Assembly: GCA_015492435.1 (NCBI GenBank)
Contig: WGFB01000014.1
Span: 15,728 to 79,727 of the forward strand
Direction of reading: 5' to 3'
Length of the DNA stretch: 64,000 nt
Source of the DNA: Gammaproteobacteria bacterium
GTDB taxonomy: Bacteria; Pseudomonadota; Gammaproteobacteria; SZUA-140
Translations under genes and position numbers: made by a program
The notes under the pieces: generated by a model
Told to the model about the DNA's origin: nothing
The model's input: only the letters and a program-made list of their open reading frames with translations
The model's database searches: none
Part shown: piece by piece, positions 1,846 to 27,746 of the stretch
How the letters are laid out: each line of letters starts with the position of its first letter
How positions within the stretch are numbered: the stretch's first letter is position 1

Positions 1846-1860
1846 AGTTTCCTCGGCGGT

Positions 1861-5066: not shown

Positions 5067-5162
5067 GATGGCAGCCCCCGGCGGCGACATTGCAACAACG
5101 CGGGCAAGCCTATTCCATATCGGCAATCTGAACGCAGCGCTCCGCGGGACCTTTGCATGGAA

Positions 5163-6278
5163 TCAGTCCGTCTCTTCAAGCAGCGCCTTCAGGCGCGCCA
5201 CCACGCGCGGCAACTCATCCGCGGGCCTGTTTCCCGCGGGAAGGAAATCCTCTCCCAGGGATACCGCCAGCCCCCTGTCCAGCAATACCCGGTGCAAGGC
5301 GGTGAGATCGCGCGCATACCCCAGTATTCCCAGGCGGCGGAATAGCGCGCCCAGCGCCTCACCGAGGGCGCCGCCATTCCCGCCTCCCGCCAGCCTGGCC
5401 ACCCATTGTTGCAGGCGGCTCGCGGGATCTTCCCTGACGGGCAGAGGGAAAATCGCCAGCGGCCTGCCCAGGCGCGCCACTTCCACCATCATGGAAACGC
5501 TGTCGCCGGTCACGATGAAATAGTCGGCCAGGCCGAGCAGCGCACGGTAGGGATTGTCCTTGCCGTCCCTGCGCCACTGGTAGAAACGGGCGTTTCCCGG
5601 CAGCGCGTCCTGGACAGCCTTCACCACCGGCAGCGGCGTGCGCCTGCTGGTAGTGGCATAAAGCGTCCCCCCCGCCTTATCAGCAAGGGCGGAGGCCCTG
5701 CCCACCAGGTCCCGCGCCACGCTTGCATCGAACACAAAGGGCTTGGTGGCGCCGCCGATCATGAGCGCGAAAACGGGACGTTGCAAGGCGGCGAAACGTT
5801 CGCGCCAGGAAGCAGCCGCCTCGGCAATGGCACGCTCGTCCGGCCGCATGAGAGGCAGGTCGAGGCGCAGCACATTGGGCCTGTCGGGCAGATGATACTG
5901 AGATGGCGCGATGATCAGGGCGTAGTCATCCAGGCCCCGCTTGGGGCGTCCCACCAGCACGACCCGGCTCCGCCCTCCACTCTGTTTGCGTATCCACATG
6001 GCCACCATCGCGGAGCGGCGCCCGATGGTGAGGATGAGATCCGGCCATGGCGGCTGCAACGCGTCCGATTTTTGCCGGTCGATGTGATAGAGAGAGGCCT
6101 TGAAGGGAGGCTTGCCCAACACATATTGTTCCAGGGGATAGACACGCTTGGTCTCGCAGGGCAGCCCCAGGGCCTCGGCGATGATTTCCACCTGGGCATT
6201 GTCGCCCAGCTTGTCACTGAGCACCAGCCAGATGCGGGGCGCCTGGCGCGCGTTGTCGGGGACAAAGGGAGTGGACAT
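5163..6278 (-). CDS. ELM1/DUF1022 family protein (predicted GT-B-like transferase)
   Basis: 371 aa. PWPDLILTIGRRS...VVLVGRP...YALIIAPSQYHLP...FALMIGGATKPFVFD...NPYRALLGLADYFIVTGDSVSMMVEVARLGRPLAIF fits the mitochondrial-fission ELM1-like family seen in LPS-core clusters. Confidence 0.6.
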   Translation of the reverse strand: MSTPFVPDNARQAPRIWLVLSDKLGDNAQVEIIAEALGLPCETKRVYPLEQYVLGKPPFKASLYHIDRQKSDALQPPWPDLILTIGRRSAMVAMWIRKQSGGRSRVVLVGRPKRGLDDYALIIAPSQYHLPDRPNVLRLDLPLMRPDERAIAEAAASWRERFAALQRPVFALMIGGATKPFVFDASVARDLVGRASALADKAGGTLYATTSRRTPLPVVKAVQDALPGNARFYQWRRDGKDNPYRALLGLADYFIVTGDSVSMMVEVARLGRPLAIFPLPVREDPASRLQQWVARLAGGGNGGALGEALGALFRRLGILGYARDLTALHRVLLDRGLAVSLGEDFLPAGNRPADELPRVVARLKALLEETD

Positions 6279-6411
6279 GAAATTCGCCGGATTTCGGGTA
6301 CTCAGTATATCAGGACCAACACGGCGTGTTCCATCCTGAGAAATCGTTTTTCCATAGCGGGTACGGCCTTGCTAACATACGCAATACTATTCTGTCCTCC
6401 ACCGCCACAAC

Positions 6412-7536
6412 ATGAACGATTTGTCATCCTCCATCGGCGTCCCGGCCGACCCGCCAACCGTCTGGATCATCACCGGCTACCGCGCCGGGGAAGATACGCA
6501 GATTCTCGCCCTCGCCGAGGCCCTGCAATGGCCCTTCTCCACCAAGCGCCTCGTTTACCAGGCCCATGATTTCATACCCGGCCTGCTGCGCCTGGCCTCG
6601 CTGAAGGGCATCAATCTGGCCCGCTCCAGCCCCCTTGTCCCGCCCTGGCCGGACCTGGTCATCTCCGCGGGCATGCGCAATGAACCCGTATGCCGCTGGA
6701 TCAAGGCGCAATCCGGGGGGAGAACGCGCATTGTCCTGCTGGGCAGGCACTGGGCGCGGCTGGAGCACTTCGATCTCGTCATCACCACTCCCCAATACCG
6801 CCTCCCGCAAGATACAAAAATTCTGCACAATATCACGACCCTGCACCGGGTCAACGAAAACATGCTGCGGGAGGCCTGCACCCGGCATGCCGCCACCCTG
6901 GCCGGCTTGCCGCGCCCCCACATCGCGGTGATCATGGGCGGCAGCAGCGGTCCCTATACCCTTGGGCGGCGTGCCGCGCGGCGCCTGGCCCGCCAGGCCT
7001 GCGCAATGGCACGCGCCCAGGGAGGCGCCCTCCTCGTCACCAGCAGCTCGCGCACCCCCGCCGCCGCCATCGATGCCTTTTCCGCGGCCGCCGCATGCCC
7101 CATGCGCTTCTACCGGTGGAAACCGGCCGACAAGGCCAACCCCTATTACGCCTTCCTGGCCTCGGCCGACGCCATTATCGTCACGGGTGACAGCATCGCC
7201 ATGCTCTCGGAAGCCTGCGCCACGGGAAAACCCGTCTATATTTTCGACCTGGGAACGGGCAGGGAGGCCATGCGCCCCCTGCCAGCAGGCTCAAGGCACG
7301 CCCGCGGCAGCGCGGAGCGGAACGATTTCCGGCTGGGCGCGTTGCTCTACAAGCTGCTCATGCGCCACGGCCCGCAACGGCTGACACGCGACATCCGCCT
7401 GGTACACAGTCAATTGACCGCCTCGGGGCTGGCCACCTGGCTGGACGAAACATGCACGCCACCCTCCCCGGGCCAACGCCCCCCCGACAGCATCGAGCGC
7501 GCCGTGGCGCGGGTACGCTCAATGCTCGGCCGGTGA
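6412..7536 (+). CDS. ELM1/DUF1022 family protein (paralog of 5163..6278, divergently transcribed)
   Basis: 374 aa with the same motif series as its neighbour (PWPDLVISAGMRN...IVLLGRH...DLVITTPQYRLP...IAVIMGGSSGPY...NPYYAFLASADAIIVTGDSIAMLSEACATGKPVYIF). Confidence 0.6.
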   Translation: MNDLSSSIGVPADPPTVWIITGYRAGEDTQILALAEALQWPFSTKRLVYQAHDFIPGLLRLASLKGINLARSSPLVPPWPDLVISAGMRNEPVCRWIKAQSGGRTRIVLLGRHWARLEHFDLVITTPQYRLPQDTKILHNITTLHRVNENMLREACTRHAATLAGLPRPHIAVIMGGSSGPYTLGRRAARRLARQACAMARAQGGALLVTSSSRTPAAAIDAFSAAAACPMRFYRWKPADKANPYYAFLASADAIIVTGDSIAMLSEACATGKPVYIFDLGTGREAMRPLPAGSRHARGSAERNDFRLGALLYKLLMRHGPQRLTRDIRLVHSQLTASGLATWLDETCTPPSPGQRPPDSIERAVARVRSMLGR

Positions 7537-9255
7537 GCGCACCGGGATGAGCCGCTCGTCCTGCAGGCGGTAGACCCGGTCGGCGATGTCCACCAGCGCC
7601 GTCTGGTGCGAGATGGACAGAACCGTCAGCCGCCCCGCCAACTGTTTCAAGGTGTCGCAGATGGCGCCCTCGCTCTTGGGATCCAGGGCGCTTGTCGCTT
7701 CATCCAGGATCAGCAGCTCCGGCCGGTGCGCCAGCGCGCGCGCGATCATGATGCGCTGGCGCTGACCGCCGGAAAGGCTGGCGCCACGCTCCCCGACCAC
7801 GCTGTACATACCGTCACGCAAATCTGAAACGAACTCCCAGGCCCCGGCCGCCCGCAAGGCGTATTCCGCGTCCGCTTCATCCAGCCCGGGATCGCCCAGA
7901 GTGACATTGTGAAACACGTTGTCATGAAGGAGCAGGTTTTCCTGGGGCACATAGCCGATCTTTCTGCGCCACTGGCGCAGATCCATCTCTCTCAGATCCA
8001 CGCCATCTATGAGTATGGCGCCATGCTGGGGTTGCAGCAGGCCGGTGATGAGGTCGACAATGGTCGTCTTGCCGGCCCCGGAAGGACCCGTCAACGCCAC
8101 CAGGGAGCCCTTGGGTATCACCGCCGAGGCATCGCGCAGGACGACTTTCTCACCATAGGCAAAATCGACGCCCTGCAGGCGGATGTCCCGCTCAAATCTC
8201 GGCGGCAGCGTGCCCGTGGAGATCTCGCGGGTTTCCTGCGCCTCGCGAGTGGTCTGATCGATGGACCAGAAGGCGCTTTCCGCGGTCACCATCTTCTGAT
8301 ACCAGCGCTGTATCTTTCCCATTTGCGCCATGATGCGCCCCAGCAACAGGGCCAGCATGAGCATGGTGGAAGCCGGCACTTCCCACATCACCAGGGCCAC
8401 ATAAATTCCGATGGCTATGAATCCCACGAACATGGGTTCCTGGATGGCCTGCAGCACGGCCTTGCTGAAGACCTCCTTCTGCAGGGCACGATTGAGTTTC
8501 GATGTCTCGGCCGCCATCACTTCGTCGGCCAGGTCTTCCCTGCCCATGGCCTTGAGTGGCTTGACGGACTGCAGGGTGTCGGTAAGGCGGCCGAGGAGAG
8601 ACTTCAGCAGCTTGGTCTGGCGCTTGCCGGCGCGGCGCGACATTCTCACCAGGGCATACGTGACGACGAGCACCAGCAACCCCGCACCCAACGCGGCCAG
8701 GGTGGCTTGCCAGGAAATCAGCAGGGCCACGATGATATAGACGACCGCTTCGATACAGCGGGCGATCATGGTCGTGCCATAGATATAGGCCTCCGAAGCG
8801 CGCATGGCCTCGGTGGTCATGGCATTGGCCATGCGCCCCGCCGGCTGCCGGATGAAGTATTCCCAACGGGAGGCCAGCACGGCGCGCAGCAGGGACAGGC
8901 GCAGATCGGTGGTGACCTGCGCGGCGGTGTAGCCGATCTGCTTGCGCGCCGCCAGCAGGAGCAGATTCTTGACCACAATCCCCACCATCACGATGATCAG
9001 CAACACACCAATGGAGGGCGTCAGGCCGACGTCATGCAACACGCCGCGCACGATCTCCTCCAGTCCACTGCCATCCTGGCCGCCTCCATCCGTCCCCGGA
9101 ACTTTGTCCCCCTCCCCCTGATCCAGGGCCAGGCTGAGCAGGGGCAGCAAGGCGGAGAGGCTGATCCCCTCGGAAATACCCGCCAGCAACAGGGCGAGCA
9201 GCATCAGGACGGACTGCCAGGGATATACGCGGAAGAATTTCAGAAGTATATGCAT
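7519..9255 (-). CDS. ABC transporter permease/ATP-binding protein, MsbA-like lipid exporter
   Basis: 578 aa. N-terminal 6-TM domain followed by an NBD with Walker A GPSGAGKTT, signature LSGGQRQR and Walker B LILDEATSALD. Confidence 0.85.
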   Translation of the reverse strand: MHILLKFFRVYPWQSVLMLLALLLAGISEGISLSALLPLLSLALDQGEGDKVPGTDGGGQDGSGLEEIVRGVLHDVGLTPSIGVLLIIVMVGIVVKNLLLLAARKQIGYTAAQVTTDLRLSLLRAVLASRWEYFIRQPAGRMANAMTTEAMRASEAYIYGTTMIARCIEAVVYIIVALLISWQATLAALGAGLLVLVVTYALVRMSRRAGKRQTKLLKSLLGRLTDTLQSVKPLKAMGREDLADEVMAAETSKLNRALQKEVFSKAVLQAIQEPMFVGFIAIGIYVALVMWEVPASTMLMLALLLGRIMAQMGKIQRWYQKMVTAESAFWSIDQTTREAQETREISTGTLPPRFERDIRLQGVDFAYGEKVVLRDASAVIPKGSLVALTGPSGAGKTTIVDLITGLLQPQHGAILIDGVDLREMDLRQWRRKIGYVPQENLLLHDNVFHNVTLGDPGLDEADAEYALRAAGAWEFVSDLRDGMYSVVGERGASLSGGQRQRIMIARALAHRPELLILDEATSALDPKSEGAICDTLKQLAGRLTVLSISHQTALVDIADRVYRLQDERLIPVRSPAEH

Positions 9256-9299: not shown

Positions 9300-10502
9300 T
9301 CAATTTTCCAGGATTCTCCCGCTCAGGGCGCCAAAGGCATCGACGACGGCATCGATCTGGGCGGCGCTGTGGGCCGCGCTGAGGCTGCAACGCAACAGGC
9401 ATTCCGTGGTCGGCGAGGCGGGTGGCATCACCAGGTTCACATAGACCCCCTTGTCCAGAAGGTCATGCCAGACTTTCAGGGCGCTGTCCTTCGATCTGCC
9501 CAGGGTGACGGCAACGACCGGGCTGGATTCGGGTCCCATCCTGAAACCGAAGGCCTTGAGCCCCTGGTACAGGCGGTGAGCGTTGTCCCACAGGCGCTTG
9601 CGCAGCTCAGGACCCTGTTCCCGCAGGATACTCAGGGCGACGCGGGTGGAGGCAATGATGGAAGGCGACGAGGAGGCCGTAAAAATATAGGGACGCATGG
9701 CATAGCGTGCATGCTCCAGTTCCTGCCACCTGCTGACGCAGAACCCGCCGATGGCCCCCAGGCTCTTGCTGAAGGTGCCGACGATGAAATCCACGTCCTC
9801 CTCCACGCCCGCCTGCTCCACCAGTCCCCGCCCTCGCTCCCCCAGAACGCCCAGGGAATGGGCCTCGTCCACCATCAGATAGGCTCCGTGGCGGCGCTTG
9901 ACTTCCACGATCTCCTGGAGGGGCGCCTGATCGCCGATCATGCTGTAGATGCCTTCCACGACAACGAGGGCCGATTCCGCCTTGTCTCCCAGGCGCCTGA
10001 GACGCTTATCCAGATCGGCGGGGTCGTTGTGACGAAAGCGGATGACCTCCGCATTGCCGAGACGGCAGCCATCATAGATGCTGGCATGGCTGTCCGCGTC
10101 CAGGAGAATGGCGTCCGAGGCGCCTGGTATGGTGGACAGTATACCCAGGTTGGCGATGTAACCCGTCGAAAACACGATGGAGGCCGGCAGTCCGAAAAAC
10201 TCCGCCAGTTCCCTTTCCAGCGCCAAGTGGCCGGCATAGGTGCCATTGGCCATGCGGGATCCCGTGGTGCCGGTTCCCTCCTCTTCCAGCGCCTTCCTGC
10301 CCGCGGCGATGCAGCGTGGATCGAAGGTCAGCCCCAGGTAGTTGTTGGTGCCCGCCAGGATGGTGCGGCGGCCGTTGACAATGGCCTCCGTCTCCGAAAG
10401 CACCTGCTCGACGACGACGTTGAAGGGATTGGCATCCAGTCTTGCCACATCTTCTCGCAGGTTGGCATAGTACTGGAACTTATCAAAGATCGACCGTGTC
10501 AT
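9300..10502 (-). CDS. spt: Serine palmitoyltransferase (alpha-oxoamine synthase family)
   Basis: 400 aa and very close to Sphingomonas SPT: ILAGTNNYLGLTFDP...GSRMANGT...IVFSTGYIANLGILST...ILLDADSHASIYDGCRLGNAEVIRFRHND..DLDKRL...GTFSKSLG (the PLP lysine). Confidence 0.85.
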   Translation of the reverse strand: MTRSIFDKFQYYANLREDVARLDANPFNVVVEQVLSETEAIVNGRRTILAGTNNYLGLTFDPRCIAAGRKALEEEGTGTTGSRMANGTYAGHLALERELAEFFGLPASIVFSTGYIANLGILSTIPGASDAILLDADSHASIYDGCRLGNAEVIRFRHNDPADLDKRLRRLGDKAESALVVVEGIYSMIGDQAPLQEIVEVKRRHGAYLMVDEAHSLGVLGERGRGLVEQAGVEEDVDFIVGTFSKSLGAIGGFCVSRWQELEHARYAMRPYIFTASSSPSIIASTRVALSILREQGPELRKRLWDNAHRLYQGLKAFGFRMGPESSPVVAVTLGRSKDSALKVWHDLLDKGVYVNLVMPPASPTTECLLRCSLSAAHSAAQIDAVVDAFGALSGRILEN

Positions 10503-10753
10503 TCACTCAGTTCCTGGAGGCTGACCGCCAGGTCCCTGACCGTGTTGATATCGGGCAACCGATTGAGAGGTATGGAGATATCCAGATGATCCTCGATCTC
10601 CATGAGCAGTTCAAGCAACCTGACGGAATCAATATCGAGATCGGCGACAAGCTGGGTTTCTTCGTTCAGCCGCTGGTTGGCCTCGCTGGCAAAAGGCTTT
10701 AACACTTCATAGAGTGCGTCGAGTATTTCCTGATATTGTTTCATGTCGTTCAC
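10499..10753 (-). CDS. acp: Acyl carrier protein (sphingolipid-dedicated ACP)
   Basis: 84 aa, acidic. DLDIDSVRLLEL is a phosphopantetheine attachment motif. The gene overlaps the spt start by 4 nt. Confidence 0.8.
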   Translation of the reverse strand: MNDMKQYQEILDALYEVLKPFASEANQRLNEETQLVADLDIDSVRLLELLMEIEDHLDISIPLNRLPDINTVRDLAVSLQELSE

Positions 10754-10804
10754 GCATCCAGACTAATAGGGCTCAGCTTGTCCGATCCTGCCCTTAAAAA
10801 CAAG

Positions 10805-10963
10805 GGAAACTCTGATTAATTCTGGACCGGATGGATGGCGAGATGAAATGTTCCGGACCAAGGCGAAAAGCACAGGTAATAGCGCGCTATTGCCAAGATT
10901 TTCAACGCAGAGCCGGGACATTTCAGCCGCCAGACGCCGGTTTATGAATTGATCAGAGGTTCC
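10805..10963. mobile_element. 159-bp palindromic MITE (Correia-like), copy 1
   Basis: Terminal inverted repeats GGAA(A/C)CTCTGAT(T/C)AATTC ... GAATTGATCAGAGGTTCC. The internal arms and centre are near-identical to copies at 39421..39579 and 42132..42290. Confidence 0.75.
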
Positions 10964-11036
10964 CAAGCCATGATCAATTCAACCCGCGGGAAAGGCGGCA
11001 TTTTAGCGCGATTCCTTGCCGAATTCTAACCCGCCT

Positions 11037-11070
11037 TTCTCACCGGGATGGCGGGCTGACCTGAGCCTGC
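11037..11070. repeat. ~30-bp conserved hairpin motif AACCCGC(A/C)TTTCTCACC(R)GGATGGCGGG, copy 2
   Basis: Near-identical to 1861..1895 and 14364..14398. Stem CCCGCC/GGCGGG. Confidence 0.5.
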
Positions 11071-11112
11071 CTGCGCCGGCCCGTCATCCCGCGGTAATGG
11101 AGTGAACGCAGG

Positions 11113-12057
11113 CTACCGCGTCCCGTGGGAGGGATACAGGGTTTTTCTCAGCCCTTCCGAAAGTGAAATACGCGGCGCCCAGCCACAGGCATCCCGCCAG
11201 GGCGAGGTGTCATGGCATACCCAGTCTTCATGGAGCAATTCCCGCGCCTTGCCAGGGGTCAGCATGGGGGCGTATCCGGCCACGCGGGCCATCTGTCCAT
11301 TGAGCGCGGCGAGGCCACGCAGCGCCCAGGAGGGAAGATAGCATTTCCTCACCCTGGCACCACGGAGGCTGGCAACCGCTGCCACCACATCTTCCCAGCC
11401 ATAACCACCAGCCCGTCCGTCATCCAGTTCATAGACCCCGCTCCGGCCGGATGGCATCTCCAGGCCACATAGAATGGCCCGCACCAGATCATCGACATAG
11501 AGCAGGGAAAAACGCGCTTGCCTGGAGCCGGGAATAAGGGCCAGGCCACGGGCCATCCACTGGAACAAGGGCAGGAGTTCACGGTCGCCGGGACCGTAGA
11601 CCGCCGGCGGACGCAACGCCAGCCACTCCAGCTTCTCTCCCAGAGCGAGAAGGACTTCCTCTCCTCCGCGCTTGCTGGCGGCATAGTGGGACAAGGCGGG
11701 CTCGCGGGCCGCCAGGGAAGACAGCGCGATGAGGCGGGGCGGGCAGGGTTGCGCCAGCACGGCACTGGCCATTTTCCTCACACCTTCCACGTTGACGCGG
11801 TCGAACTGGGCCTGGGTACGGCCGCGCACGGCGCCGGCACAATGGATCACGGCCCTGACACCGCGCGTCAGGTGTTCGAGGCAGTCCTGATCGTCCAGGT
11901 CCCCGCTGATCCATGCGAGGCCCGGCCGGGCCGGTGATTCCAGGGGACGGACGGCCCGCCTGAGGGCGCGCACTTCCCAACCCTGGTCCAGCAACGCCTT
12001 GACCAGGGCGCGCCCGATGAATCCCGTCGCGCCGGTGACTGCTACGCTGCGGGACAC
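11113..12057 (-). CDS. cerR: NAD-dependent epimerase/dehydratase family reductase (bacterial 3-ketodihydrosphingosine/ceramide reductase CerR candidate)
   Basis: 314 aa. N-terminal Rossmann motif VTGATGFIGRALV. It sits between acp and the acyl-ACP synthetase, as in the Caulobacter ceramide cluster. Confidence 0.6.
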   Translation of the reverse strand: MSRSVAVTGATGFIGRALVKALLDQGWEVRALRRAVRPLESPARPGLAWISGDLDDQDCLEHLTRGVRAVIHCAGAVRGRTQAQFDRVNVEGVRKMASAVLAQPCPPRLIALSSLAAREPALSHYAASKRGGEEVLLALGEKLEWLALRPPAVYGPGDRELLPLFQWMARGLALIPGSRQARFSLLYVDDLVRAILCGLEMPSGRSGVYELDDGRAGGYGWEDVVAAVASLRGARVRKCYLPSWALRGLAALNGQMARVAGYAPMLTPGKARELLHEDWVCHDTSPWRDACGWAPRISLSEGLRKTLYPSHGTR

Positions 12058-12090
12058 GGGAGCACCCCTGTCAGGATACGGGGGATGGCC

Positions 12091-13896
12091 TTATTGATCT
12101 CCCGCTGCCGCGGTCTGCGTTTCCCAGTCGTGCGCCTCAATGAAATTCTGGCGCGCCTTGGACCGCGAGAGCTTGCCGGAGGAGGTGCGCGGCAGGGTAT
12201 GCAGGGGCACCAGCTCCACATAGCAGTCGATGCCCAGTTCGGAACGCACGCGCTGCTTGAGGCGGCTGACCAGGCAGGCCTGGACCGCGGGATCCTTCTT
12301 GCGGCACTGAACCACCATCACGGTGGTCTCCTTGCCGCCCGGACCGGGCGCCGAGAAGGCCAGGGCATCGCCCGTGCGCACTTCGGGCTGCTGCTCGGCC
12401 AGATACTCCAGATCCTGGGGCCAGATGTTGCGCCCGTTGATGATGATAAGGTCCTTCTCCCGGCCCGTGATCACGAGCTGGCCGTCGAGGCGGTATCCGA
12501 TATCACCCGTGTTCAGCCAGCCGTCCGCGGACAGGGTCCGGCGCGTGATCTCGGGCTCGTTGAAGTAGCCGGACATGACGCTGGGGCCACGCAAGTAGAT
12601 CGTGCCGCTGTGACGCTCTGGCAGGGCATTACCCTCCTGATCACGTATTTCCACTTCGAAACCCGGCAGCGGGGTTCCGCAGACAACGAAGGATCGGGTG
12701 CGGGGGGACAGATCTTCCTTGTTACCGCCCGGCACCTCACGTGCCTCGTGACACTTGGCCAGATGATCGGCGTCGATGCGATCCACCTGCAGGCCCGTGT
12801 TGAGGGGCGCGAAACTGATGGCCAGGGAACATTCGGCCATGCCGTAGCAGGCCAGGAAGGCCTTGGGATCGAAGCCGCTGGGTTCCAGCGCCTTTGCGAA
12901 TCTCAGCAGCGGCTCGGAGCGGATCATCTCCGCACCGACTCCGGCAATGCGCCATGCGCTGAGGTCCAGCTTGCTGGCCTCGCCCGCGCGTATGCAGCGC
13001 TCCACCAGTTCATAGCCGAAGGGCGGGCCGAAGGAAATGGTCGCCTTCGTTTTGCTCATCAGGGACAACCATTGACGCGGGCGCATGGCGAATTCGCGTG
13101 TGCCGAGATAGTCGACGGATACCTGAGAAGTGACGGGCACGAGCACCAGCCCCACGAATCCCATGTCGTGATAGAACGGCAGCCAGGACACGTAACGGTC
13201 TCCTGGAACCATTTTCAGGCCGTGCTTGATGATGCCCGCCAGATTGTCCAGCACTGTTTCCTGGGTGATCATGACGCCGCGCGGGAAGCGGGTACTGCCG
13301 GAGGTGTATTGTATGTAAGCCAGTTCGTCGGACTCCAGGGGACGCAGGGCCTGCTGGCTTTCGGGGAAGTTCTCGAAGTCCACCGGATCGCCGACGAAGG
13401 CCATGTCCAGGCCCTCGGCCGCTTCCTCCAGATAGGGCAGGAAACCCGCGGCGGAGACGCCTACCGAGGCATTGCAACTGGTCAGCATGGAACGCAGATG
13501 AGCGACGTAGGCCTCGTGTCCGCCCAGGCTGATGGGGATGGGGAGCGGCACGGGCACCAGGCCCGCGTACTGACATGCAAAGAAGAATCGCAGGAAGTCC
13601 GGATGCGTCTCGGCAATCAGCGCGACGCGCGCGCCGCGTTCCAGTTCCAGGCCGAGAAAACGGCGGGCCAGTATTCGTGCTTCCTGACGCAGCCTGGCAT
13701 AGGAGAGTACGGCATATACTTCGCCTCGCCCGGTATAGAAATTACAACCGGTTTCCCCTTGAGCCGCATAGTCCAGGGCTTCCGCAAGATTGGAAAAGTC
13801 GGCTGCACGGAATGGCAAAGTATTATGGGTAGGTGTCGTCTCCAGATCCAAATTAACCTCCTTAATACTTCTCCTGTTGGTTTCTGTCCCTAGCAT
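12091..13896 (-). CDS. Fatty acyl-AMP ligase / acyl-ACP synthetase
   Basis: 601 aa. AMP-binding motifs YTSGSTRFPRGV, YGMAE, TGDIG and the C-terminal SSGKLSR lysine motif. Good RBS (AAGGAGG) upstream. Confidence 0.8.
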   Translation of the reverse strand: MLGTETNRRSIKEVNLDLETTPTHNTLPFRAADFSNLAEALDYAAQGETGCNFYTGRGEVYAVLSYARLRQEARILARRFLGLELERGARVALIAETHPDFLRFFFACQYAGLVPVPLPIPISLGGHEAYVAHLRSMLTSCNASVGVSAAGFLPYLEEAAEGLDMAFVGDPVDFENFPESQQALRPLESDELAYIQYTSGSTRFPRGVMITQETVLDNLAGIIKHGLKMVPGDRYVSWLPFYHDMGFVGLVLVPVTSQVSVDYLGTREFAMRPRQWLSLMSKTKATISFGPPFGYELVERCIRAGEASKLDLSAWRIAGVGAEMIRSEPLLRFAKALEPSGFDPKAFLACYGMAECSLAISFAPLNTGLQVDRIDADHLAKCHEAREVPGGNKEDLSPRTRSFVVCGTPLPGFEVEIRDQEGNALPERHSGTIYLRGPSVMSGYFNEPEITRRTLSADGWLNTGDIGYRLDGQLVITGREKDLIIINGRNIWPQDLEYLAEQQPEVRTGDALAFSAPGPGGKETTVMVVQCRKKDPAVQACLVSRLKQRVRSELGIDCYVELVPLHTLPRTSSGKLSRSKARQNFIEAHDWETQTAAAGDQ

Positions 13897-14363
13897 GCGT
13901 CAAATTTTGCCAAATATACATTTAATAATCTGATATATCAAGCGGTTATTCAGTTCAATTTGGTGTCCGAATTTAGTATATGATCTGTTGTTTTTTTACA
14001 ACACTGCAAACACAAAAAAATACCGGCCTGGATGTCATGCCAGCGCCTGGTACCCGGCCCTTGCTTCGGGGCACATTCTTGCGCTTTTCAATCTAAAACG
14101 CAAATTAAATATAGTACATGTAAGGGTCCGTCCGCGTCTGACGACCCTGTCACGGAAATTCCCGCCATCACATCCGCCAGCATCCTTGATTTTCTTTCCC
14201 CGCACCCGGCACGCGCAACCCAGGACCGGATTGCTTCCACGGCTCGCCCACAGCCGCAGACTTCTAATGTAGAACGCTGACTTTCCTGGGAATGTTCCAT
14301 GCAGAAAAGGAGAATTCCTCAGACAAGCAAGAATCCCCCTATCGGCCCAAGGGCTTTCAACTG

Positions 14364-14398
14364 CAACCCGCATTTCTCACCAGGATGGCGGGATGACC
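14364..14398. repeat. ~30-bp conserved hairpin motif, copy 3
   Basis: AACCCGCATTTCTCACCAGGATGGCGGGATGACC, ~300 bp upstream of the bCerS candidate. Confidence 0.5.
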
Positions 14399-14703
14399 GC
14401 GCAGCGAATTGGATTCACAAAGGATTTTGCGATGGAGCGGAATACCCGCGTGTGTTTCCGGCTGAGTTGGGTGCAAGGATCAAGCGAGGGCCCGCCATCC
14501 AGGAAGCAAGGCAGGTCTGAAAGGGGCAGCGGAAGCGCGTCCACCCGGCGCAGGGAGCGCATTTGATCCTGCCCCCGAAAATCCTGATTTTGGAACTGCA
14601 AAGAAAAACATTTATCGGTACACTACTGCCATCATCAACAAAGACCCATGGCCTGCCCCGAACATGATACCGCCCGAGCCCCGCCCGCTCCTACCAACCG
14701 ACC

Positions 14704-15858
14704 ATGGAAAACTGCTGCGCCATGTCTGAATCATCAAGGTTTCACATCGTACCCGTCGGGAACGCCAGGCAACTGGAAACATTTATCCGGATGCCATGGC
14801 CCATCTACCGCGATGACCCGGCCTGGGTTCCCCCGCTCATATACGAGCGCAAGGAACACCTGTCGGAAAAAAACCCTTTTTTCCAACACGCCCGCTGGCA
14901 GGCCTGGCTGGCCATGGACGAAGACCGCCCAGTGGGACGCATCAGCGCCCAGATTGACCAGTTGCACCTGGAACGCTATGACGACAAGTGCGGCCATTTC
15001 GGCATGCTGGAAGCCATCGACAACCCGGCGGTTTTCTCTCTGCTGCTGAACACGGCGGAGCAATGGCTGCGCGATCAGGGCATGGCCCTGATCCGCGGTC
15101 CATTCAACCTCTCCATCAATGAAGAATGCGGGCTCCTGGTGGAGGGCTTCGACACACCGCCCTCCCTCATGATGGGACATGCCCGGCCTTACTACGGCCC
15201 GCATGTGGAAGGCCAGTCCTACAGCGTGGTTAAGCAATTGCTGGCCTATCGTATTGCCACCAGGAAACAGCCTCCGGAAATCATGCAAAAGCTGACGCGC
15301 AAGGCCGGCCGCACCGCGACGGCGCGCCCCCTGAGACGCAAGGAAATCGACAAGGAGCTGGAGATCATGCAGGACATCTTCAACGATGCCTGGTCCAACA
15401 ACTGGGGATTCGTTCCCTTCACCGCCGAGGAATTCAAGGAGGTCGGGCGCAACCTCCTGATGCTGGTCAGCGACGACTTCGTGCAGATCGCGGAGATCGA
15501 CGGCGAGCCGGTGGCCATGATGGTTGCCCTGCCCAATGTCAACGAGGCCATCAAAGACCTGGATGGCAGACTCTTTCCAACGGGATTTCTGAAGCTGCTG
15601 TGGCGTCTCAAGGTCAAATATCCGCGCAGCGGGCGCATCCCCCTCATGGGGGTGCGCAAGCGTTATCATCATACCCCCCTGGGGCCCGGACTGGCTTATC
15701 TGATGATTTCCGCCATCCGTGACGCCGTCTTGAAACGCGGCATCCAGGATATGGAAATGTCCTGGATACTGGAGGACAATGCCGGCATGCGCCATATCTT
15801 GGAAACCGCCGGCGCCGAAATTTACAAGCGCTACAATATTTATCAGAAATCATTGTGA
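14704..15858 (+). CDS. GNAT-fold N-acyltransferase, bacterial ceramide synthase (bCerS) candidate
   Basis: 384 aa with coding-like composition. It is divergently oriented to the spt-acp-cerR-ACP-synthetase block across an AT-rich control region. The family call rests on context and size, not on clear motifs I could verify by eye. Confidence 0.5.
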   Translation: MENCCAMSESSRFHIVPVGNARQLETFIRMPWPIYRDDPAWVPPLIYERKEHLSEKNPFFQHARWQAWLAMDEDRPVGRISAQIDQLHLERYDDKCGHFGMLEAIDNPAVFSLLLNTAEQWLRDQGMALIRGPFNLSINEECGLLVEGFDTPPSLMMGHARPYYGPHVEGQSYSVVKQLLAYRIATRKQPPEIMQKLTRKAGRTATARPLRRKEIDKELEIMQDIFNDAWSNNWGFVPFTAEEFKEVGRNLLMLVSDDFVQIAEIDGEPVAMMVALPNVNEAIKDLDGRLFPTGFLKLLWRLKVKYPRSGRIPLMGVRKRYHHTPLGPGLAYLMISAIRDAVLKRGIQDMEMSWILEDNAGMRHILETAGAEIYKRYNIYQKSL

Positions 15859-16679
15859 CAGCGCGCACACGGGCCACACCCCTGCCTGACCAGCCCCGTT
15901 TCAGTGCCATCATCCTGGCGGGGGACCGCCGCCCCGGGGACCCACTCGTTCTGAAGGCGGGGGTCGCCGGCAAGGCCTTGATCCCCGTCGCCGGCATTCC
16001 CATGGTCCAACGCGTCGTCAGCGCCCTTGAGGAAAGCCGTTTCATCGGCAGGCGCATACTCTGCGGGCCGCCCCGCGACGCCCTGATAAGCGCCCCCCGC
16101 CTCCTGGAGATGATTCAGGCGGGTGAAGTCGAATGGATGGAGAGCCAGCCTTCCCCATGCCTCAGCGCCATCCACTCCATGGCGCGCATTCCCGATACGG
16201 AACCCGTGCTGCTCACCACGGCGGATCACGCACTGCTGAGCACGGAGATTCTTGACGAATTCTGCCGCCACGCACTCGACCACAAGCATGATGTGATGGC
16301 GGGCCTGGCACGCCACGAGGACATTCTGCGCGCCTACCCGGAAACGAACAGGACGTCCCTGCGCTTTCGCGATGGCGCTTTCAGCGGCTGCAACCTGTTT
16401 GCCTTTCCCACTCCGGCAGGCCGCCGCATCACGGCATTCTGGCGCCGCGTGGAGCAACAACGCAAGAACCCCTTCCGGGTCGTGAGCGCGGCGGGCTGGA
16501 TGGCTGTCCTGCGCTATGCCTTGGGCCGGCTGACCCTGGAAGAAGGACTGCAGCGCATCTCCCGGCGCCTGGATCTGCGTGTCGGGGTCGCTGTCTTGTC
16601 CCAGCCCGAAGCAGCCATCGACATCGATACTGTTGAAGACTGGAAATTGGCCGACAAAATAGCCAGGGAACGCCCGTAA
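15855..16679 (+). CDS. MobA-like NTP-transferase domain protein (nucleotidyltransferase)
   Basis: 274 aa. The N-terminus AIILAGDRRPGDPL...KALIPVAGIPMVQRVV is typical of MobA-like and sugar-phosphate nucleotidyltransferases. It overlaps the bCerS stop by 4 nt (ATGA), which implies translational coupling. Confidence 0.7.
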   Translation: MTARTRATPLPDQPRFSAIILAGDRRPGDPLVLKAGVAGKALIPVAGIPMVQRVVSALEESRFIGRRILCGPPRDALISAPRLLEMIQAGEVEWMESQPSPCLSAIHSMARIPDTEPVLLTTADHALLSTEILDEFCRHALDHKHDVMAGLARHEDILRAYPETNRTSLRFRDGAFSGCNLFAFPTPAGRRITAFWRRVEQQRKNPFRVVSAAGWMAVLRYALGRLTLEEGLQRISRRLDLRVGVAVLSQPEAAIDIDTVEDWKLADKIARERP

Positions 16680-16686
16680 CGGACGT

Positions 16687-17709
16687 TTGCGAACACCCAT
16701 ATTGCCTGACTACCCGGGGATGACCAGACAACAACAGCACAAACCCTGCACCGCGCGGAGCATCACCCACCTGCTGCCGGCACGGATGACTGCCCTGCTG
16801 CTGTTGCCCATGCTGATGATGCCGGTGGTCAAGCTTCAGGCCGCTCCCAGCACGGGAGAACAGGCGGCTCCACCATCCTATGACCTCAATTCCCTGACAT
16901 GGCGTGCATTGCATTTCGCAACCTCCATCATGGGCATGCCGCTTCACGCCAAAATGAAGGCCCGGATTCTTTCAAGGGACGAGGCACAGCGGCATCTGGT
17001 TTCCCCGGGCGAGGGGCACGGTATGCCACCCGCTGACGCCGTGCTGCAATTGGAGGTATTCTCCTCGTTCATCAATGACAAAGACATTCACACCCGCCTG
17101 ATGATCAATCCCGGTGACGCCGCGGCGCTGCAGCGCACCCGCGTCGAACTGACCCCGGGAGACGAGCGCTACAAGGCATACCGTTTCACCGGGGAAGGGG
17201 TTTTCATCCTGCGGCGCGTCCCCAGGCGGGGCGAGGCTGAAAAGCCCTTTACGGAATGGACGGGCACACACGAATCCTTCATCCCCTATCCCGGCCGTCA
17301 CCGCCGCCCGGACCTCGCCTCGGACACGGCCGCGCTGCTCTACATGGGTTCAGCCGCGAACTTCACAGCACCCGGCGACAGCAAAAGCTTCATTGCCTAT
17401 TTCGATGACAGCTTTCACGTGATTACGATGGAGTACCAGGGTATCGAAGGCGTACGGGCGGATTTCCAGGCCGGGCGCCAGGATGCGGGGTCACGGCGCA
17501 TCCTGAGCTACCGGGACGCCCTGCGGCTGACGATCCGCGCCCATCCCCTGGAACGCCCCAATGAAGAAAGCACGCTCCAGATCGCGGGCCTGGAGCCCCC
17601 GGTGGAGCTGTTCATCGATCAGGAAATGCGTGTCCCCCTGGAATTGCGCGGCCGCTTCGGTTTCATCGGGGAAATCTCCCTGCGCCTGGACAGGGCAGAG
17701 CTGCGGTGA
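16687..17709 (+). CDS. Secreted/periplasmic hypothetical protein
   Basis: 340-aa ORF. A likely signal peptide starts at the internal Met (MTALLLLPMLMMPVVKLQAAP, ~16786). No family recognised. It is the last gene of the bCerS operon. Confidence 0.5.
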   Translation: MRTPILPDYPGMTRQQQHKPCTARSITHLLPARMTALLLLPMLMMPVVKLQAAPSTGEQAAPPSYDLNSLTWRALHFATSIMGMPLHAKMKARILSRDEAQRHLVSPGEGHGMPPADAVLQLEVFSSFINDKDIHTRLMINPGDAAALQRTRVELTPGDERYKAYRFTGEGVFILRRVPRRGEAEKPFTEWTGTHESFIPYPGRHRRPDLASDTAALLYMGSAANFTAPGDSKSFIAYFDDSFHVITMEYQGIEGVRADFQAGRQDAGSRRILSYRDALRLTIRAHPLERPNEESTLQIAGLEPPVELFIDQEMRVPLELRGRFGFIGEISLRLDRAELR

Positions 17710-17773
17710 GTGATGTAATAATTATCCGGAATACCAAGTCCAAACAAGGTACAAGATGCAAAAGGCTGCTTCC

Positions 17774-17885
17774 CTTGTACCGTGTACCTTGTACCTTGTA
17801 CCTTGTAACTTGTAACTTGTACCTTGTAACTTGTACCTTGTACCTTGTAACTTGTAACTTGTACCTTGTACCTTGTACCTTGTAC
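17774..17885. repeat. Heptanucleotide tandem repeat (CTTGTAC/CTTGTAA)x16
   Basis: Directly visible: 16 contiguous 7-bp units with two alternating variants and one CGTGTAC variant. It lies between convergent gene ends. Confidence 0.95.
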
Positions 17886-17916
17886 CTTACTTAGATTGCG
17901 CCAGACTCAGCCCTGG

Positions 17917-19410
17917 CTACCCCTGCCAGGACAGGCCCTGGCCCGCCATGGACACGGCGCGGAACATGGCCCGCCCCTTGTTCAGCGTCTCCTCCCATTC
18001 GTTCGCCGGCACGGAATCCGCCACAATACCCGCGCCCGCCTGGATATGGAGCGTTCCATCCTTGATGACCGCCGTCCGGATGGCGATCGCCGTGTCCATA
18101 TTGCCCTGCCAGCCGATATAGCCCACGGCGCCCGAATAGATGCCGCGCTTGACGGGCTCAAGTTCGTCGATAATCTCCATGGCGCGTATCTTGGGCGCGC
18201 CCGACACCGTGCCGGCGGGGAAAGTGGCGCGCAGCACGTCCATCGCCGTCATATCCGGCCTGAGTTCTCCGGTTACGTTGGACACGATATGCATAACGTG
18301 AGAATAACGTTCCACGACCATTTTCTCGGTCAACTTCACCGTGCCGGTACGCGCCACACGGCCGGTATCGTTGCGGCCCAGATCGATCAGCATGAGATGT
18401 TCGGCCAGTTCCTTGGGATCGGATAACAATTCCTCCTCCAGGCGGCGGTCCTCTTCCTCGGTCGCACCGCGCGGGCGCGTGCCGGCAATAGGCCTCACGG
18501 TCACCACGCCATCCTCGAGCCGGGTCAGGATCTCGGGGGAGGAACCGACAATGTAAAAATCCCCCATGTTCATGTAATACATATAGGGGGAGGGATTCAG
18601 GGTGCGCAGGGCGCGGTAAACATCCAGCGGCGGGGACACATAGGGAATGGACATGCGCTGAGACAGCACGGTCTGCATCACGTCCCCCGCTACAATATAA
18701 TCCTTGATGCGCAATACGGCCTTTTCAAAGCCTTCACGGGTGAACCCCGAAATGAAAGCCTTTTCGTCCACGGCCCCGCCGCGCGCCCCAGGCACGGGAT
18801 ATTCCAGCGGCTCCCGCAAGCGTGACGCCAGTTCATCCAGGCGCCGCTGGACCGTCTCCCAGGCATCGCTGCGCGCGGTGTCGGCATGCACGATCAGGTA
18901 AAGCTTCCCCGACAAGTTGTCGAATACGGCCACTTCTTCCGAGACCAGCAGCATGATATCCGGCGTACCCAGAGTATCCCGCGGCGGGTCCGTACCCAGA
19001 CGGGGCTCGATATAACGAATGATGTCATAGGCAAAATACCCCACCAGCCCTCCCGAGAAGCGCGGCATGCCAGCTACTTCCGGAACCCTGAATCCATGAA
19101 CATAGTCGGCGATCCACGCCAGGGGATCGTCATGGCTTACCTGCTCGATGATGGTGTCGCCCTGTTCAACGGTTATCTCCTTCCCGCTGACACGCACTTT
19201 ACGGACACAAGGCAGGCCGATAATGGAGTACCGCCCCCACTTCTCTCCCCCCTGAACCGACTCCAGCAGATAGGAATAGGGCCGGTCACCGGCGAGCTTC
19301 AGGAAAGTGCTCAGTGGCGTGTCGAGATCCGCCAGCACCTCGCGCATCAGGGGGACGCGGGTATATCCGGCCTTCCTGAATGACTCGAACTGTTGAAGCG
19401 TGACTGTCAC
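17917..19410 (-). CDS. trpE: Anthranilate synthase component I
   Basis: 497 aa. [27 protein letters not shown] and [20 protein letters not shown] match the TrpE C-terminal chorismate-binding region. Apparent GTG start. Confidence 0.9.
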
Positions 19411-22031: not shown

Positions 22032-22070
22032 TATACCCCTCGCTTATATTTTTCGTGCCTTGAATGGATT

Positions 22071-23146: not shown

Positions 23147-23148
23147 GT

Positions 23149-24564: not shown

Positions 24565-24623
24565 GACTATCGCGATTCCATTTATAGATTGTTATCACAT
24601 ACCCCTGGCGGCTCAGGCTGGGC

Positions 24624-27697: not shown

Positions 27698-27746
27698 CTT
27701 GTTTCACCCCGTTTTCGTCACACACATTGCGTGTGTACAACGTGAA

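What the first reader, a model, noticed from the sequence alone, without database searches (positions are those of the whole stretch)
15855..17709. NTP-transferase and secreted protein of unknown function translationally coupled to the ceramide synthase candidate
The bCerS-candidate stop overlaps the start of a MobA-like nucleotidyltransferase (ATGA). That gene is followed 8 nt later by a 340-aa protein with a predicted signal peptide and no recognisable family.

A nucleotidyltransferase in a lipid head-group context suggests activation of a polar head group (CMP-/CDP-/NDP-X) or of ceramide-phosphate. The secreted partner could be the transferase that installs it on the periplasmic side. Neither is part of the described core ceramide pathway.
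Basis: inference. Interest (0 to 1): 0.7.

Follow-up and report, generated by a model that had tools for sequence, protein, structure and literature searches.

The report
Sphingolipid operon: ceramide synthase, nucleotidyltransferase, periplasmic barrel
The nucleotidyltransferase overlapping the bacterial ceramide synthase gene belongs to a family already shown genetically to be needed for an anionic sphingolipid head group in Caulobacter. The secreted protein after it looks like a periplasmic lipid-binding barrel, not an enzyme.

Summary
The three + strand genes are real and form one unit. They are the bCerS homologue (14704-15858), a PF12804 nucleotidyltransferase (15855-16679) and a secreted protein (16720-17709).

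**Nucleotidyltransferase**
- Its GTG start overlaps the bCerS stop as GTGA, not ATGA.
- It is 48% identical (E 8e-81) to the Pseudomonas luteola gene directly after cerS.
- Olea-Ozuna et al. 2024 list that gene as the orthologue of Caulobacter CC_1153/CCNA_01211. CC_1153 is required for ceramide diphosphoglycerate, and its biochemistry is still unknown.
- It is not MobA, CofC, CobY, KdsB or CpgD.
- At least 597 species genomes carry the family.
- In 72 of 74 loci that contain a bCerS homologue, bCerS lies directly upstream on the same strand.
- This holds even in clusters with no CpgA-D nearby.

**Secreted protein**
- It has no Pfam hit, but it belongs to a family of at least 529 sequence clusters, distantly linked to DUF3108.
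- It sits inside sphingolipid clusters in three lineages, each with a different gene arrangement.
- I read it as a lipid-binding or trafficking factor, not a head-group transferase.

**Verdict:** a new member of a known kind, with one undescribed accessory candidate.

The parts
14704..15858 (+). bCerS-type ceramide synthase homologue (GNAT-like, 384 aa), first gene of the unit
   Evidence: 52% identical to the P. luteola cerS orthologue. At least 8000 homologues, some carrying PF00583. No Pfam hit for the window protein itself.
15855..15858 (+). GTGA overlap of the NTase start codon (GTG) with the bCerS stop codon (TGA)
   Evidence: Read directly from the sequence. The bCerS-NTase junction overlaps or has a gap of at most 20 nt in 48 of 64 scorable loci from other species.
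15855..16679 (+). PF12804 nucleotidyltransferase (274 aa) of the CC_1153/CCNA_01211 family; predicted cytoplasmic and soluble
   Evidence: PF12804 at 40.8 bits. 48% identity and E 8e-81 to P. luteola L079:9941-10804, which the paper names the CC_1153 orthologue. Closest solved structure is TTHA0179, 2DPW. No hydrophobic segment. Conserved R25, K40, D124-H125, D256 and D258.
16680..16719 (+). 40-nt spacer before the ATG of the third gene (an alternative TTG start lies at 16687)
   Evidence: Sequence. Public gene calls give 329 aa. The corresponding gap is 38 nt in L096.
16720..16842 (+). Predicted Sec signal peptide (residues 1-41, cleavage after KLQA)
   Evidence: Hydrophobic core at residues 23-37, K/R-rich n-region. 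N-terminal hydrophobic segment kept in homologues. No lipobox.
16720..17709 (+). Secreted 329-aa beta-spiral/barrel protein, from an unannotated family distantly related to DUF3108
9300..13896 (-). Divergent core ceramide genes: spt (9300-10502), ACP (10499-10753), CerR-like SDR (11113-12057), acyl-ACP synthetase AasR (12091-13896)
   Evidence: NF047599 serine palmitoyltransferase at 628 bits. Pfam families on public gene calls.
5163..9255 (.). Context: two ELM1-like PF06258 putative glycosyltransferases (5163-6278 -, 6412-7536 +) and an MsbA-like ABC exporter (7519-9255 -)

Best explanation
The region is the downstream two-thirds of a three-gene transcription unit, bCerS - nucleotidyltransferase - secreted beta-spiral protein. 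It is transcribed divergently from aasR-cerR-acp-spt.

**Nucleotidyltransferase.**
- Shown: it is the local orthologue of Caulobacter CC_1153/CCNA_01211.
- Inferred: it is a soluble cytoplasmic, Mg-dependent enzyme that joins an NMP from an NTP to a phosphorylated substrate, releasing PPi. This would supply or process an activated intermediate for building the anionic or polar head group on ceramide.
- Shown: its start codon overlaps the bCerS stop, so it is made together with bCerS. The pairing is kept across many phyla. It occurs in clusters of the CpgA-D (phosphoglycerate) type and also in ABC-exporter/ELM1-type clusters like this one.
- Inferred: its role is therefore more general than the CPG-to-CPG2 step seen in Caulobacter.

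**Third gene.**
- Inferred from signal peptide and fold: the product is exported by Sec and folds into an EipB/LolA-like beta-spiral.
- Inferred: it most likely binds the lipid and helps move or insert the finished sphingolipid between inner and outer membrane. It is probably not a catalyst.

**Basis.** Orthology and gene linkage are shown. The enzyme chemistry, the substrate and the carrier role are inferred.
For: **NTase: family and orthology.**
- PF12804 hit above its cut-off.
- 48% identity over 259 aa, E 8e-81, to P. luteola L079:9941-10804.
- The gene order of L079 was checked by Pfam: HIT, cerS, NTP_transf_3, CpgD-like, LptF/G x2, CDP-OH_P_transf, DAGK_cat, Tam41-like.
- That order matches locus tags FOB45_16300-16340 in Table S2F of PMC11324152. 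There FOB45_16310 is the CC_1153 orthologue (35% identity, E 9e-39).
- Deleting CC_1153 abolishes CPG2 and raises CPG and ceramide (PMC11324152).

**NTase: linkage to bCerS.**
- At least 597 species genomes encode the family.
- 74 of the best 80 loci hold a bCerS homologue, and 72 of those have it directly upstream on the same strand.
- The junction overlaps or is at most 20 nt in 48 of 64 loci.
- 16 of 40 full-length loci have no CpgA-D within 10 kb but keep the pair.

**NTase: likely active.** The Arg/Lys/Asp and D-x-D-T motifs typical of this fold are invariant or nearly so.

**Secreted protein.**
- N-terminal signal peptide.
- Confident model, pLDDT 88.9 and pTM 0.81.
- Foldseek top hits are 6NTR, YmcC, LolA3 and LprG.
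- EipB is a periplasmic protein with a largely hydrophobic lumen that is needed for envelope integrity (10.1101/551135).
- The bCerS-NTase-barrel trio is kept in all five close homologues.
- True homologues (hhalign 99.7%, E 5e-26) lie inside complete cpg clusters in four Desulfobulbaceae and one Syntrophus genome, in different orientations.
Against: **NTase.**
- No biochemical activity is known for any member of this family, CC_1153 included.
- The window protein was never aligned to CC_1153 itself. The orthology chain runs through P. luteola and a published BLAST table.
- The glycine-rich NTP loop is altered (LAGDR in place of LAGGxxxR), so the substrate or even catalysis could be unusual.
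- CpgA and CpgD, the partners proposed for the CC_1153 step in Caulobacter, are absent from the window and its contig.

**Secreted protein.**
- It is next to the NTase in only 7 of 80 loci.
- Seven more distant family members sampled (L089-L095) show no sphingolipid genes nearby. Several of those contigs are short.
- Lipid binding is inferred from the fold only.
Confidence: 0.6

Rival explanations
1. The NTase is a non-catalytic or regulatory partner of bCerS. It would be a subunit that hands ceramide on to head-group enzymes or controls bCerS, rather than a working nucleotidyltransferase.
For: Start/stop overlap and near-universal adjacency to bCerS fit stoichiometric co-production. The canonical GGxGxR loop is changed to GDR. 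The CC_1153 mutant accumulates ceramide and grows more slowly than the other head-group mutants (PMC11324152).
Against: K40, D124-H125, D256, D258, R166 and R203-K204 are invariant across the 34 aligned sequences (48-94% identical to the window protein). Such sequences come from Proteobacteria, Desulfobacterota, Nitrospirota and other phyla. This pattern fits a conserved active site. No bCerS-NTase fusion proteins appear among the listed homologues.
Confidence: 0.15
2. The NTase is a second CpgD-like CTP:phosphoglycerate cytidylyltransferase, or a MobA/CofC/CobY cofactor enzyme that merely happens to lie here.
For: Automated annotations of homologues call them CobY-, MobA- or MocA-like. There are weak NCBIfam hits to KdsB, MobA, CofC and MocA models. 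CofC relatives are known to accept phospholactate, PEP or 3-phosphoglycerate (my own knowledge), which resembles the glycerate head group.
Against: All four NCBIfam hits score 16-18 bits against cut-offs of 105-193. There is no similarity to the P. luteola CpgD orthologue (E 1.4), and both genes coexist in 37 of 80 loci. A profile search of the PDB finds only TTHA0179 convincingly, with no MobA, CofC or CobY chain at E up to 1. No mobB or cofactor genes lie next to it.
Confidence: 0.07
3. The secreted protein is a periplasmic enzyme that installs or trims the head group.
For: It is co-transcribed with biosynthetic genes. The family has no assigned function.
Against: The fold matches non-enzymatic lipid- or ligand-binding barrels: EipB, PA1994, YmcC, LolA, LprG. 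VioE is the only enzyme among the near hits. There is no match to sulfatase, PAP2 or LicD families. Conserved positions are W61 and W180, then Q138, R155 and Y208 plus Gly/Pro/Leu.
Confidence: 0.1
4. The secreted protein is an integral outer-membrane beta-barrel, or an envelope housekeeping protein unrelated to sphingolipids that sits at the cluster edge by chance.
Confidence: 0.15

Closest known systems
[quoted passage not shown] 2024, PMC11324152)
   Same: Same Pfam domain and similar length (274 against 291 aa). Same position directly downstream of cerS/bCerS. The window protein is 48% identical to the P. luteola protein that the paper lists as the CC_1153 orthologue.
   Different: In Caulobacter it works alongside CpgA and CpgD to make ceramide diphosphoglycerate. 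Here CpgA, CpgD and LptF2/G2 are not found in the window or its contig. The cluster instead carries an ABC exporter, ELM1-like and other glycosyltransferases and a sulfotransferase. The window protein was not compared directly with CC_1153. The biochemical function is unknown in both.
CpgD / CCNA_01210, CTP:phosphoglycerate cytidylyltransferase (PMC12275187)
   Same: A nucleotidyltransferase of the same broad fold class in the same sphingolipid clusters. It is often the convergent neighbour of the CC_1153-type gene (26 of 71 loci).
   Different: A different family (COG1213-type; PF00483 and PF01128 hits). No detectable pairwise similarity to the window NTase (E 1.4). No CpgD homologue in the window.
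TTHA0179 of Thermus thermophilus (PDB 2DPW, hypothetical protein)
   Same: The only solved structure with clear sequence similarity (E 6e-18 for the single sequence, 3e-30 for the profile). The match covers the C-terminal helical extension and the D-V-D motif.
   Different: No known function. It keeps the canonical LAGG loop. No known sphingolipid context.
MobA, MocA, CofC/FbiD and CobY cofactor nucleotidyltransferases
   Same: Same PF12804-type fold. Automated annotation labels homologues this way.
   Different: Equivalog models score 16-18 bits against cut-offs of 105-193. There are no cofactor-pathway neighbours.
Brucella EipB (DUF1849, PDB 6NTR), periplasmic 14-stranded beta-spiral needed for envelope integrity
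   Different: 7-9% sequence identity and no DUF1849 Pfam hit. EipB is found in Alphaproteobacteria and is genetically linked to TtpA, not to sphingolipid genes. The function of EipB is also unresolved.
DUF3108 (PF11306; YmcC-like fold) and LolA/LolB/LprG lipid carriers
   Same: 14 of 80 family members reach PF11306 (best E 1.9e-5). YmcC, LolA, LolA3 and LprG appear among the fold matches.

Membership tests
PF12804 MobA-like NTP transferase domain (superfamily level) | Score above the Pfam gathering threshold | tested here: met
   40.8 bits against a cut-off of 27, E 3.2e-10, residues 36-238.
CC_1153/CCNA_01211 sphingolipid-cluster NTase family | Full-length homology to a published orthologue of CC_1153 | tested here: met
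   48% identity over 259 aa, E 8e-81, to P. luteola L079:9941-10804. The gene order of that locus matches FOB45_16300-16340, where FOB45_16310 is the listed CC_1153 orthologue.
CC_1153/CCNA_01211 sphingolipid-cluster NTase family | Located directly downstream of cerS/bCerS on the same strand | tested here: met
   4-nt overlap in the window. Same arrangement in 72 of 74 loci that hold bCerS. The same order is published for Caulobacter, Hyphomonas, N. eutropha, A. vinelandii and P. luteola.
CC_1153/CCNA_01211 sphingolipid-cluster NTase family | Direct reciprocal best match to CCNA_01211 itself | not tested
   No Caulobacter sequence could be obtained. An exact search with a published deletion primer found nothing in genome contigs.
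CC_1153/CCNA_01211 sphingolipid-cluster NTase family | Required for formation of the complex phosphosphingolipid (loss of CPG2 on deletion) | not testable with these tools
   Genetic evidence exists only for Caulobacter (PMC11324152).
MobA (molybdenum cofactor guanylyltransferase) | Equivalog model score, and a mobB or Mo-cofactor gene context | tested here: not met
   NF002741 scores 17.4 bits against 179. MocA TIGR03310 scores 16.3 against 186. The neighbours are sphingolipid genes.
CofC (2-phospho-L-lactate guanylyltransferase) and KdsB | Equivalog or subfamily model score | tested here: not met
   TIGR03552 scores 17 bits against 105. NF003952 scores 18.4 against 193.
CpgD (CTP:phosphoglycerate cytidylyltransferase) | Sequence homology to CpgD orthologues | tested here: not met
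   BLASTP E 1.4 against the P. luteola CpgD orthologue.
DUF3108 (PF11306) | Pfam match of the protein itself | tested here: not met
   No hit even at E 10. Only 14 of 80 distant relatives reach the model. The relationship is therefore remote.
EipB/DUF1849 beta-spiral | Fold similarity to 6NTR | tested here: met
EipB/DUF1849 beta-spiral | Sequence-family membership (DUF1849 Pfam hit) | tested here: not met
   No Pfam family was found. A profile search of PDB sequences found nothing at E up to 1.
Sec-exported periplasmic protein | N-terminal signal peptide with a charged n-region, a hydrophobic core and a small-residue cleavage motif | tested here: met
   Manual and Kyte-Doolittle analysis, with the feature conserved in homologues. 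No dedicated predictor was available.
Outer-membrane beta-barrel | C-terminal beta-signal ending in an aromatic residue; best fold matches to integral barrels | tested here: not met

The most novel reading that the evidence does not exclude
Two linked readings remain open.

1. The CC_1153-type nucleotidyltransferase is an obligatory partner of bCerS in essentially all bacteria that use the bCerS route. It would act at a step common to every head-group type, for example activating the first phospho-intermediate or working in a complex with bCerS. It would not be a CPG2-specific enzyme.

2. The beta-spiral protein is a dedicated periplasmic sphingolipid chaperone, a LolA-like carrier for sphingolipids. 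This would be a previously unrecognised route for moving sphingolipids to the outer membrane.
Probability: 0.2. Interest if true: 0.7.

Novelty: new member of a known kind. Interest (0 to 1): 0.42.

Why it matters
**Open questions this bears on.** How bacteria decorate ceramide and carry it to the outer membrane is only partly worked out. In Caulobacter the enzymatic role of CC_1153 is the least understood step, and no periplasmic carrier is known.

**What this locus adds on the NTase.**
- The CC_1153 family travels with bCerS across Proteobacteria, Desulfobacterota, Nitrospirota, Methylomirabilota and other phyla.
- It does so even in clusters without CpgA-D nearby. This argues that its function is broader than the published CPG2 phenotype suggests.
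- That narrows the substrates worth testing in vitro.

**What this locus adds on the secreted protein.** An unannotated EipB/LolA-like periplasmic protein family recurs inside sphingolipid clusters. It is a concrete, testable candidate for sphingolipid trafficking.

**Caveat.** Both points are comparative-genomic leads, not demonstrated functions.

Tried and rejected
**Attempts that failed or gave nothing**
1. Fetching the Caulobacter locus with the published CC_1153 deletion primer (22 nt, exact) found no match in genome contigs. Orthology had to be routed through P. luteola.
2. AlphaFold with only the five close homologues gave an unusable model (pLDDT 44). It was replaced by a run with 80 sequences.
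The 10-sequence alignment returned only four loci.
4. The afdb50 fold library was not available.
5. Rfam found nothing credible over 13500-18200.

**Ideas considered and rejected**
6. MobA, MocA, CofC, CobY and KdsB identity for the NTase, because scores fall far below the cut-offs.
7. CpgD identity.
8. Sulfatase, PAP2 or LicD identity for the secreted protein, because there is no family hit and the fold is unrelated.
9. The 285-aa ORF on the opposite strand (15843-16700), because all the homology and domain evidence found lies on the + strand.
10. TTG 16687 as the start of the third gene. It cannot be excluded, but public gene calls and homologue N-termini favour ATG 16720.
Full report
**What is in the sequence.** Window 14704-17709 carries three + strand genes.

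- The first gene (14704-15858, 384 aa) ends in TGA at 15856-15858.
- The second gene starts at GTG 15855, so the two overlap by four bases, GTGA. GTG 15855 is the only canonical start upstream of the conserved N-terminal motif.
- The second gene ends in TAA at 16677-16679.
Public gene calls on identical metagenome contigs, and all five close homologues, start at the ATG at 16720 instead. That gives 329 aa after a 40-nt gap.
- No terminator-like site lies on the + strand between the three genes.
- On the other strand, transcribed divergently, lie an acyl-ACP synthetase, an SDR of the CerR type and an acyl carrier protein. Next comes a serine palmitoyltransferase that passes the NCBIfam equivalog NF047599 (628 bits, cut-off 500), followed by an MsbA-like ABC exporter.

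**The first gene is a bCerS homologue.** It has no Pfam hit of its own. It has at least 8000 homologues, many carrying the GNAT domain PF00583. It is 52% identical to the Pseudomonas luteola gene that Olea-Ozuna et al. 2024 (PMC11324152, Table S2F) list as the orthologue of Caulobacter cerS, CC_1154.

**The nucleotidyltransferase: family.**

- The 274-aa protein passes PF12804, the MobA-like NTP transferase domain (40.8 bits, cut-off 27).
- NCBIfam models for KdsB, MobA, CofC and MocA score only 16-18 bits against cut-offs of 105-193. It is not an orthologue of any of these.
- The only solved structure with clear similarity is the uncharacterised Thermus protein TTHA0179, PDB 2DPW. It scores E 6e-18 for the single sequence and 3e-30 for a family profile. 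IspD, GlmU and KdsB appear only at E of 1e-3 or worse, and no MobA, CofC or CobY chain appears at all.
- In a 34-sequence alignment of 48-94% identity, K40, D124-H125, R166, E200, R203-K204, D256 and D258 are invariant and R25 is nearly so. The N-terminal loop reads LAGDR rather than the usual LAGGxxxR.
- The protein has no hydrophobic segment.
- By position, R25, K40 and D124 parallel the Arg, Lys and Asp that are catalytic in related cytidylyltransferases. The CpgD paper cites R16, K26 and D112 for the Thermotoga enzyme IMPCT and says they are conserved in CpgD (PMC12275187). This parallel is my inference and was not checked on a structure.

**The nucleotidyltransferase: link to the literature.** In Caulobacter the gene immediately after cerS (CC_1154) is CC_1153/CCNA_01211. 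[quoted passage not shown] Deleting it abolishes ceramide diphosphoglycerate (CPG2), while CPG and ceramide accumulate (PMC11324152). The next gene, CC_1152/CCNA_01210, is CpgD, a CTP:phosphoglycerate cytidylyltransferase of a different family (PMC12275187).

I could not retrieve the Caulobacter sequence, because an exact search with a published deletion primer found nothing. A genome scan with the NTase alignment did return P. luteola NBRC 103146 as locus L079. I checked the gene order of L079 by Pfam:

- HIT protein
- cerS
- NTP_transf_3
- a PF00483/PF01128/PF12804 NTase on the opposite strand
- two LptF/G permeases
- a CDP-alcohol phosphatidyltransferase
- a DAGK_cat kinase
- a Tam41-like protein

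This is exactly the published order FOB45_16300 to 16340. It corresponds to CC_1157, cerS, CC_1153, CpgD, LptF2/G2, CpgA, CpgB and CpgC. The window NTase is 48% identical over 259 residues (E 8e-81) to the P. luteola CC_1153 orthologue. It shows no similarity to the P. luteola CpgD orthologue (E 1.4). I conclude that the window gene belongs to the CC_1153 family. As of a May 2026 preprint from the group that characterised CpgD, that family is not mentioned, and I found no assigned activity for it.

**How general the bCerS-NTase pair is.**

- The best 80 loci come from Gammaproteobacteria, Desulfobacterota, Nitrospirota, Nitrospinota, Methylomirabilota/Rokubacteria, Geobacter and Syntrophus.
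- 74 of these loci contain a bCerS homologue within the flank, and in 72 it lies directly upstream on the same strand. At least two of the six loci without one start at the NTase, so the upstream DNA is missing.
- Where a start codon could be assigned, the junction overlaps or is at most 20 nt in 48 of 64 loci.
- The commonest downstream neighbour is a convergent CpgD (26 of 71 loci). LptF2 follows with 13.
- Among the 40 loci with a full 10 kb on both sides, 15 hold all of CpgA-D. Another 16 hold none of them. Most of those 16 instead have the ABC exporter and ELM1-like (PF06258) genes, as the window does.
- The window and its contig have no CpgA, CpgD, LptF2/G2 or HIT homologue.
- A CpgB fragment and a CpgC homologue (42% identity) lie just upstream of the window start on the same contig. 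With them are a third ELM1-like gene, a sulfotransferase, a GT2 and a GT11.
- PF06258 proteins are treated as putative outer-core glycosyltransferases in Acinetobacter lipooligosaccharide loci (PMC10327509).

The NTase therefore stays with bCerS regardless of which head-group machinery surrounds it. From this I infer that its role is not confined to the CPG-to-CPG2 step.

**The secreted protein: family and fold.**

- The word-indexed search found only five homologues, all in the same bCerS-NTase-X arrangement.
- The exhaustive phmmer search found 529 representative clusters at E up to 1e-3, of which 308 were at E up to 1e-10. All listed hits are about 300 aa.
- Neither the window protein nor the cluster-embedded deltaproteobacterial copies hit any Pfam family, even at E 10.
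- 14 of 80 aligned relatives reach DUF3108, PF11306, with a best E of 1.9e-5.
- The N-terminus has a K/R-rich stretch, a 15-residue hydrophobic core and the motif KLQA|AP, with no lipobox.
- A five-sequence AlphaFold run failed (pLDDT 44). The 80-sequence run gave pLDDT 88.9 and pTM 0.81, an almost all-beta protein of about 16 strands.
- Foldseek ranks 6NTR first, followed by YmcC, LolA3 and LprG.
- EipB is a monomeric periplasmic 14-stranded 'beta-spiral'. Its lumen is about two-thirds hydrophobic, it resembles LolA and LolB, and it is required for envelope integrity (10.1101/551135).
- Across the 80 sequences only W61 and W180 are invariant. Q138, R155, G160, P168, L206, Y208, G290, G311, G317 and L323 are nearly invariant. 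This does not look like a catalytic constellation.
- The C-terminus (…RLDRAELR) lacks the aromatic end typical of outer-membrane barrels.

I therefore read the protein as a soluble periplasmic ligand- or lipid-binding protein.

**The secreted protein: is it tied to sphingolipids?** A family HMM searched against all ORFs of the 80 NTase loci gave seven clean hits (E 1e-50 to 1e-94) and nothing weaker.

- L007 and L008 are relatives of the window organism, and there the gene follows the NTase on the same strand.
- In four Desulfobulbaceae loci (L013, L015, L016, L018) it lies alone on the opposite strand, between the NTase and either cpgD or aasR. That places it in the interior of complete clusters.
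- In one Syntrophus locus (L023) it is the last gene of the cpgD-lptFG-cpgA-cpgB-cpgC strand, 66 nt after cpgC.
- The deltaproteobacterial proteins are true homologues: hhalign probability 99.7%, E 5e-26, over 274 columns at 19% identity.

Three lineages with three different arrangements argue for a functional link. Against this, seven further family members at 28-40% identity (L089-L095) have no sphingolipid genes on their contigs. Several of those contigs are short. In addition, 73 of the 80 NTase loci have no copy within 10 kb. The association is therefore real but partial. The carrier role rests on fold and neighbourhood only.

**Proposed mechanism, with shown and inferred steps marked.**

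- Shown: bCerS and the CC_1153-type NTase are produced from overlapping reading frames in one operon with the exported barrel protein. The NTase family is genetically needed for a complex phosphosphingolipid in Caulobacter.
- Inferred: the NTase is an active cytoplasmic NTP:phospho-X nucleotidyltransferase feeding head-group assembly. Candidates for X are phosphoglycerate-like metabolites or a phosphorylated ceramide derivative.
- Inferred: CpgB and CpgC homologues, ELM1-like and other glycosyltransferases and a sulfotransferase build the head group in this organism.
- Inferred: the ABC exporter flips the lipid, and the beta-spiral protein binds it in the periplasm on its way to the outer membrane.

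The main rival for the NTase is a non-catalytic partner of bCerS. The main rivals for the barrel protein are a periplasmic enzyme, an integral outer-membrane barrel, and an unrelated envelope protein.

**Novelty and score.** Two things go beyond what I found in print. One is the near-universal, often overlapping, pairing with bCerS across phyla, including clusters with no CpgA-D nearby. The other is the recurrent presence of an unannotated EipB/LolA-like periplasmic family inside sphingolipid clusters. Both are testable leads of moderate interest and neither is a surprise in kind. I score interest at 0.42.

Noticed in passing
window 17773-17888: A 7-nt tandem repeat (CCTTGTA/ACTTGTA, 16.6 copies) lies between the converging secreted-protein gene and trpE. 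The perfect run is 14 units in the window and 6, 13, 7 and 3 units in four metagenome copies of the same population. It is absent from relatives at 91% or lower protein identity, so it is a fast-changing VNTR. A GGTACAAG…CTTGTACC hairpin sits at its left edge.
   Followed up: partly
window 910-7536, and L005:1-2506 (just upstream of the window start): The sphingolipid cluster continues upstream. It holds a sulfotransferase (910-1845 -), a GT2 (about 2121-3236 +), a GT11 (4176-5066 -), two ELM1-like PF06258 genes inside the window and a third outside it. CpgB-like (DAGK_cat) and CpgC-like (Tam41-like, 42% identical to P. luteola) genes lie beyond the window edge. This suggests a glycosylated, possibly sulfated, phosphosphingolipid rather than CPG2.
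   Followed up: partly
loci L007-L086: Sphingolipid clusters fall into two types. One has CpgA-D plus LptF2/G2 (15 of 40 full loci). The other has none of CpgA-D within 10 kb and usually carries an MsbA-like ABC exporter and ELM1-like genes (16 of 40). The second type includes marine Haliea and Porticoccaceae MAGs and the window's clade.
   Followed up: partly
window 7519-9255 (-): An MsbA/HepA-like ABC exporter lies directly beside spt. A homologue is present in 34 of 80 loci. It is a candidate sphingolipid flippase, distinct from the Wzx-like CC_1166 proposed in Caulobacter.
   Followed up: no
window 13897-14703: An intergenic region of about 800 nt separates the divergent aasR and bCerS genes. 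A small ORF of 59-68 aa is called on the - strand in some identical contigs. Rfam finds nothing. One sigma-70-like site faces aasR.
   Followed up: partly
L090:7020-7942: The metagenomic copy of the beta-spiral family in L090 matches in two different frames, so it looks frameshifted. It is either a pseudogene or an assembly error.
   Followed up: no
window about 21000-29000 (-): Genes for ActD, NrfD-type membrane, 4Fe-4S and molybdopterin-oxidoreductase subunits, together with a c-type cytochrome, form an alternative-complex-III-like cluster downstream of rpe-gph-trpE.
   Followed up: no
supplementary growth data of PMC11324152: The Caulobacter CC_1153 deletion grows more slowly than the other head-group mutants in plain medium (OD600 0.35 against about 0.8 at 8 h). 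This hints at a role beyond CPG2 synthesis, or at a toxic intermediate.
   Followed up: no
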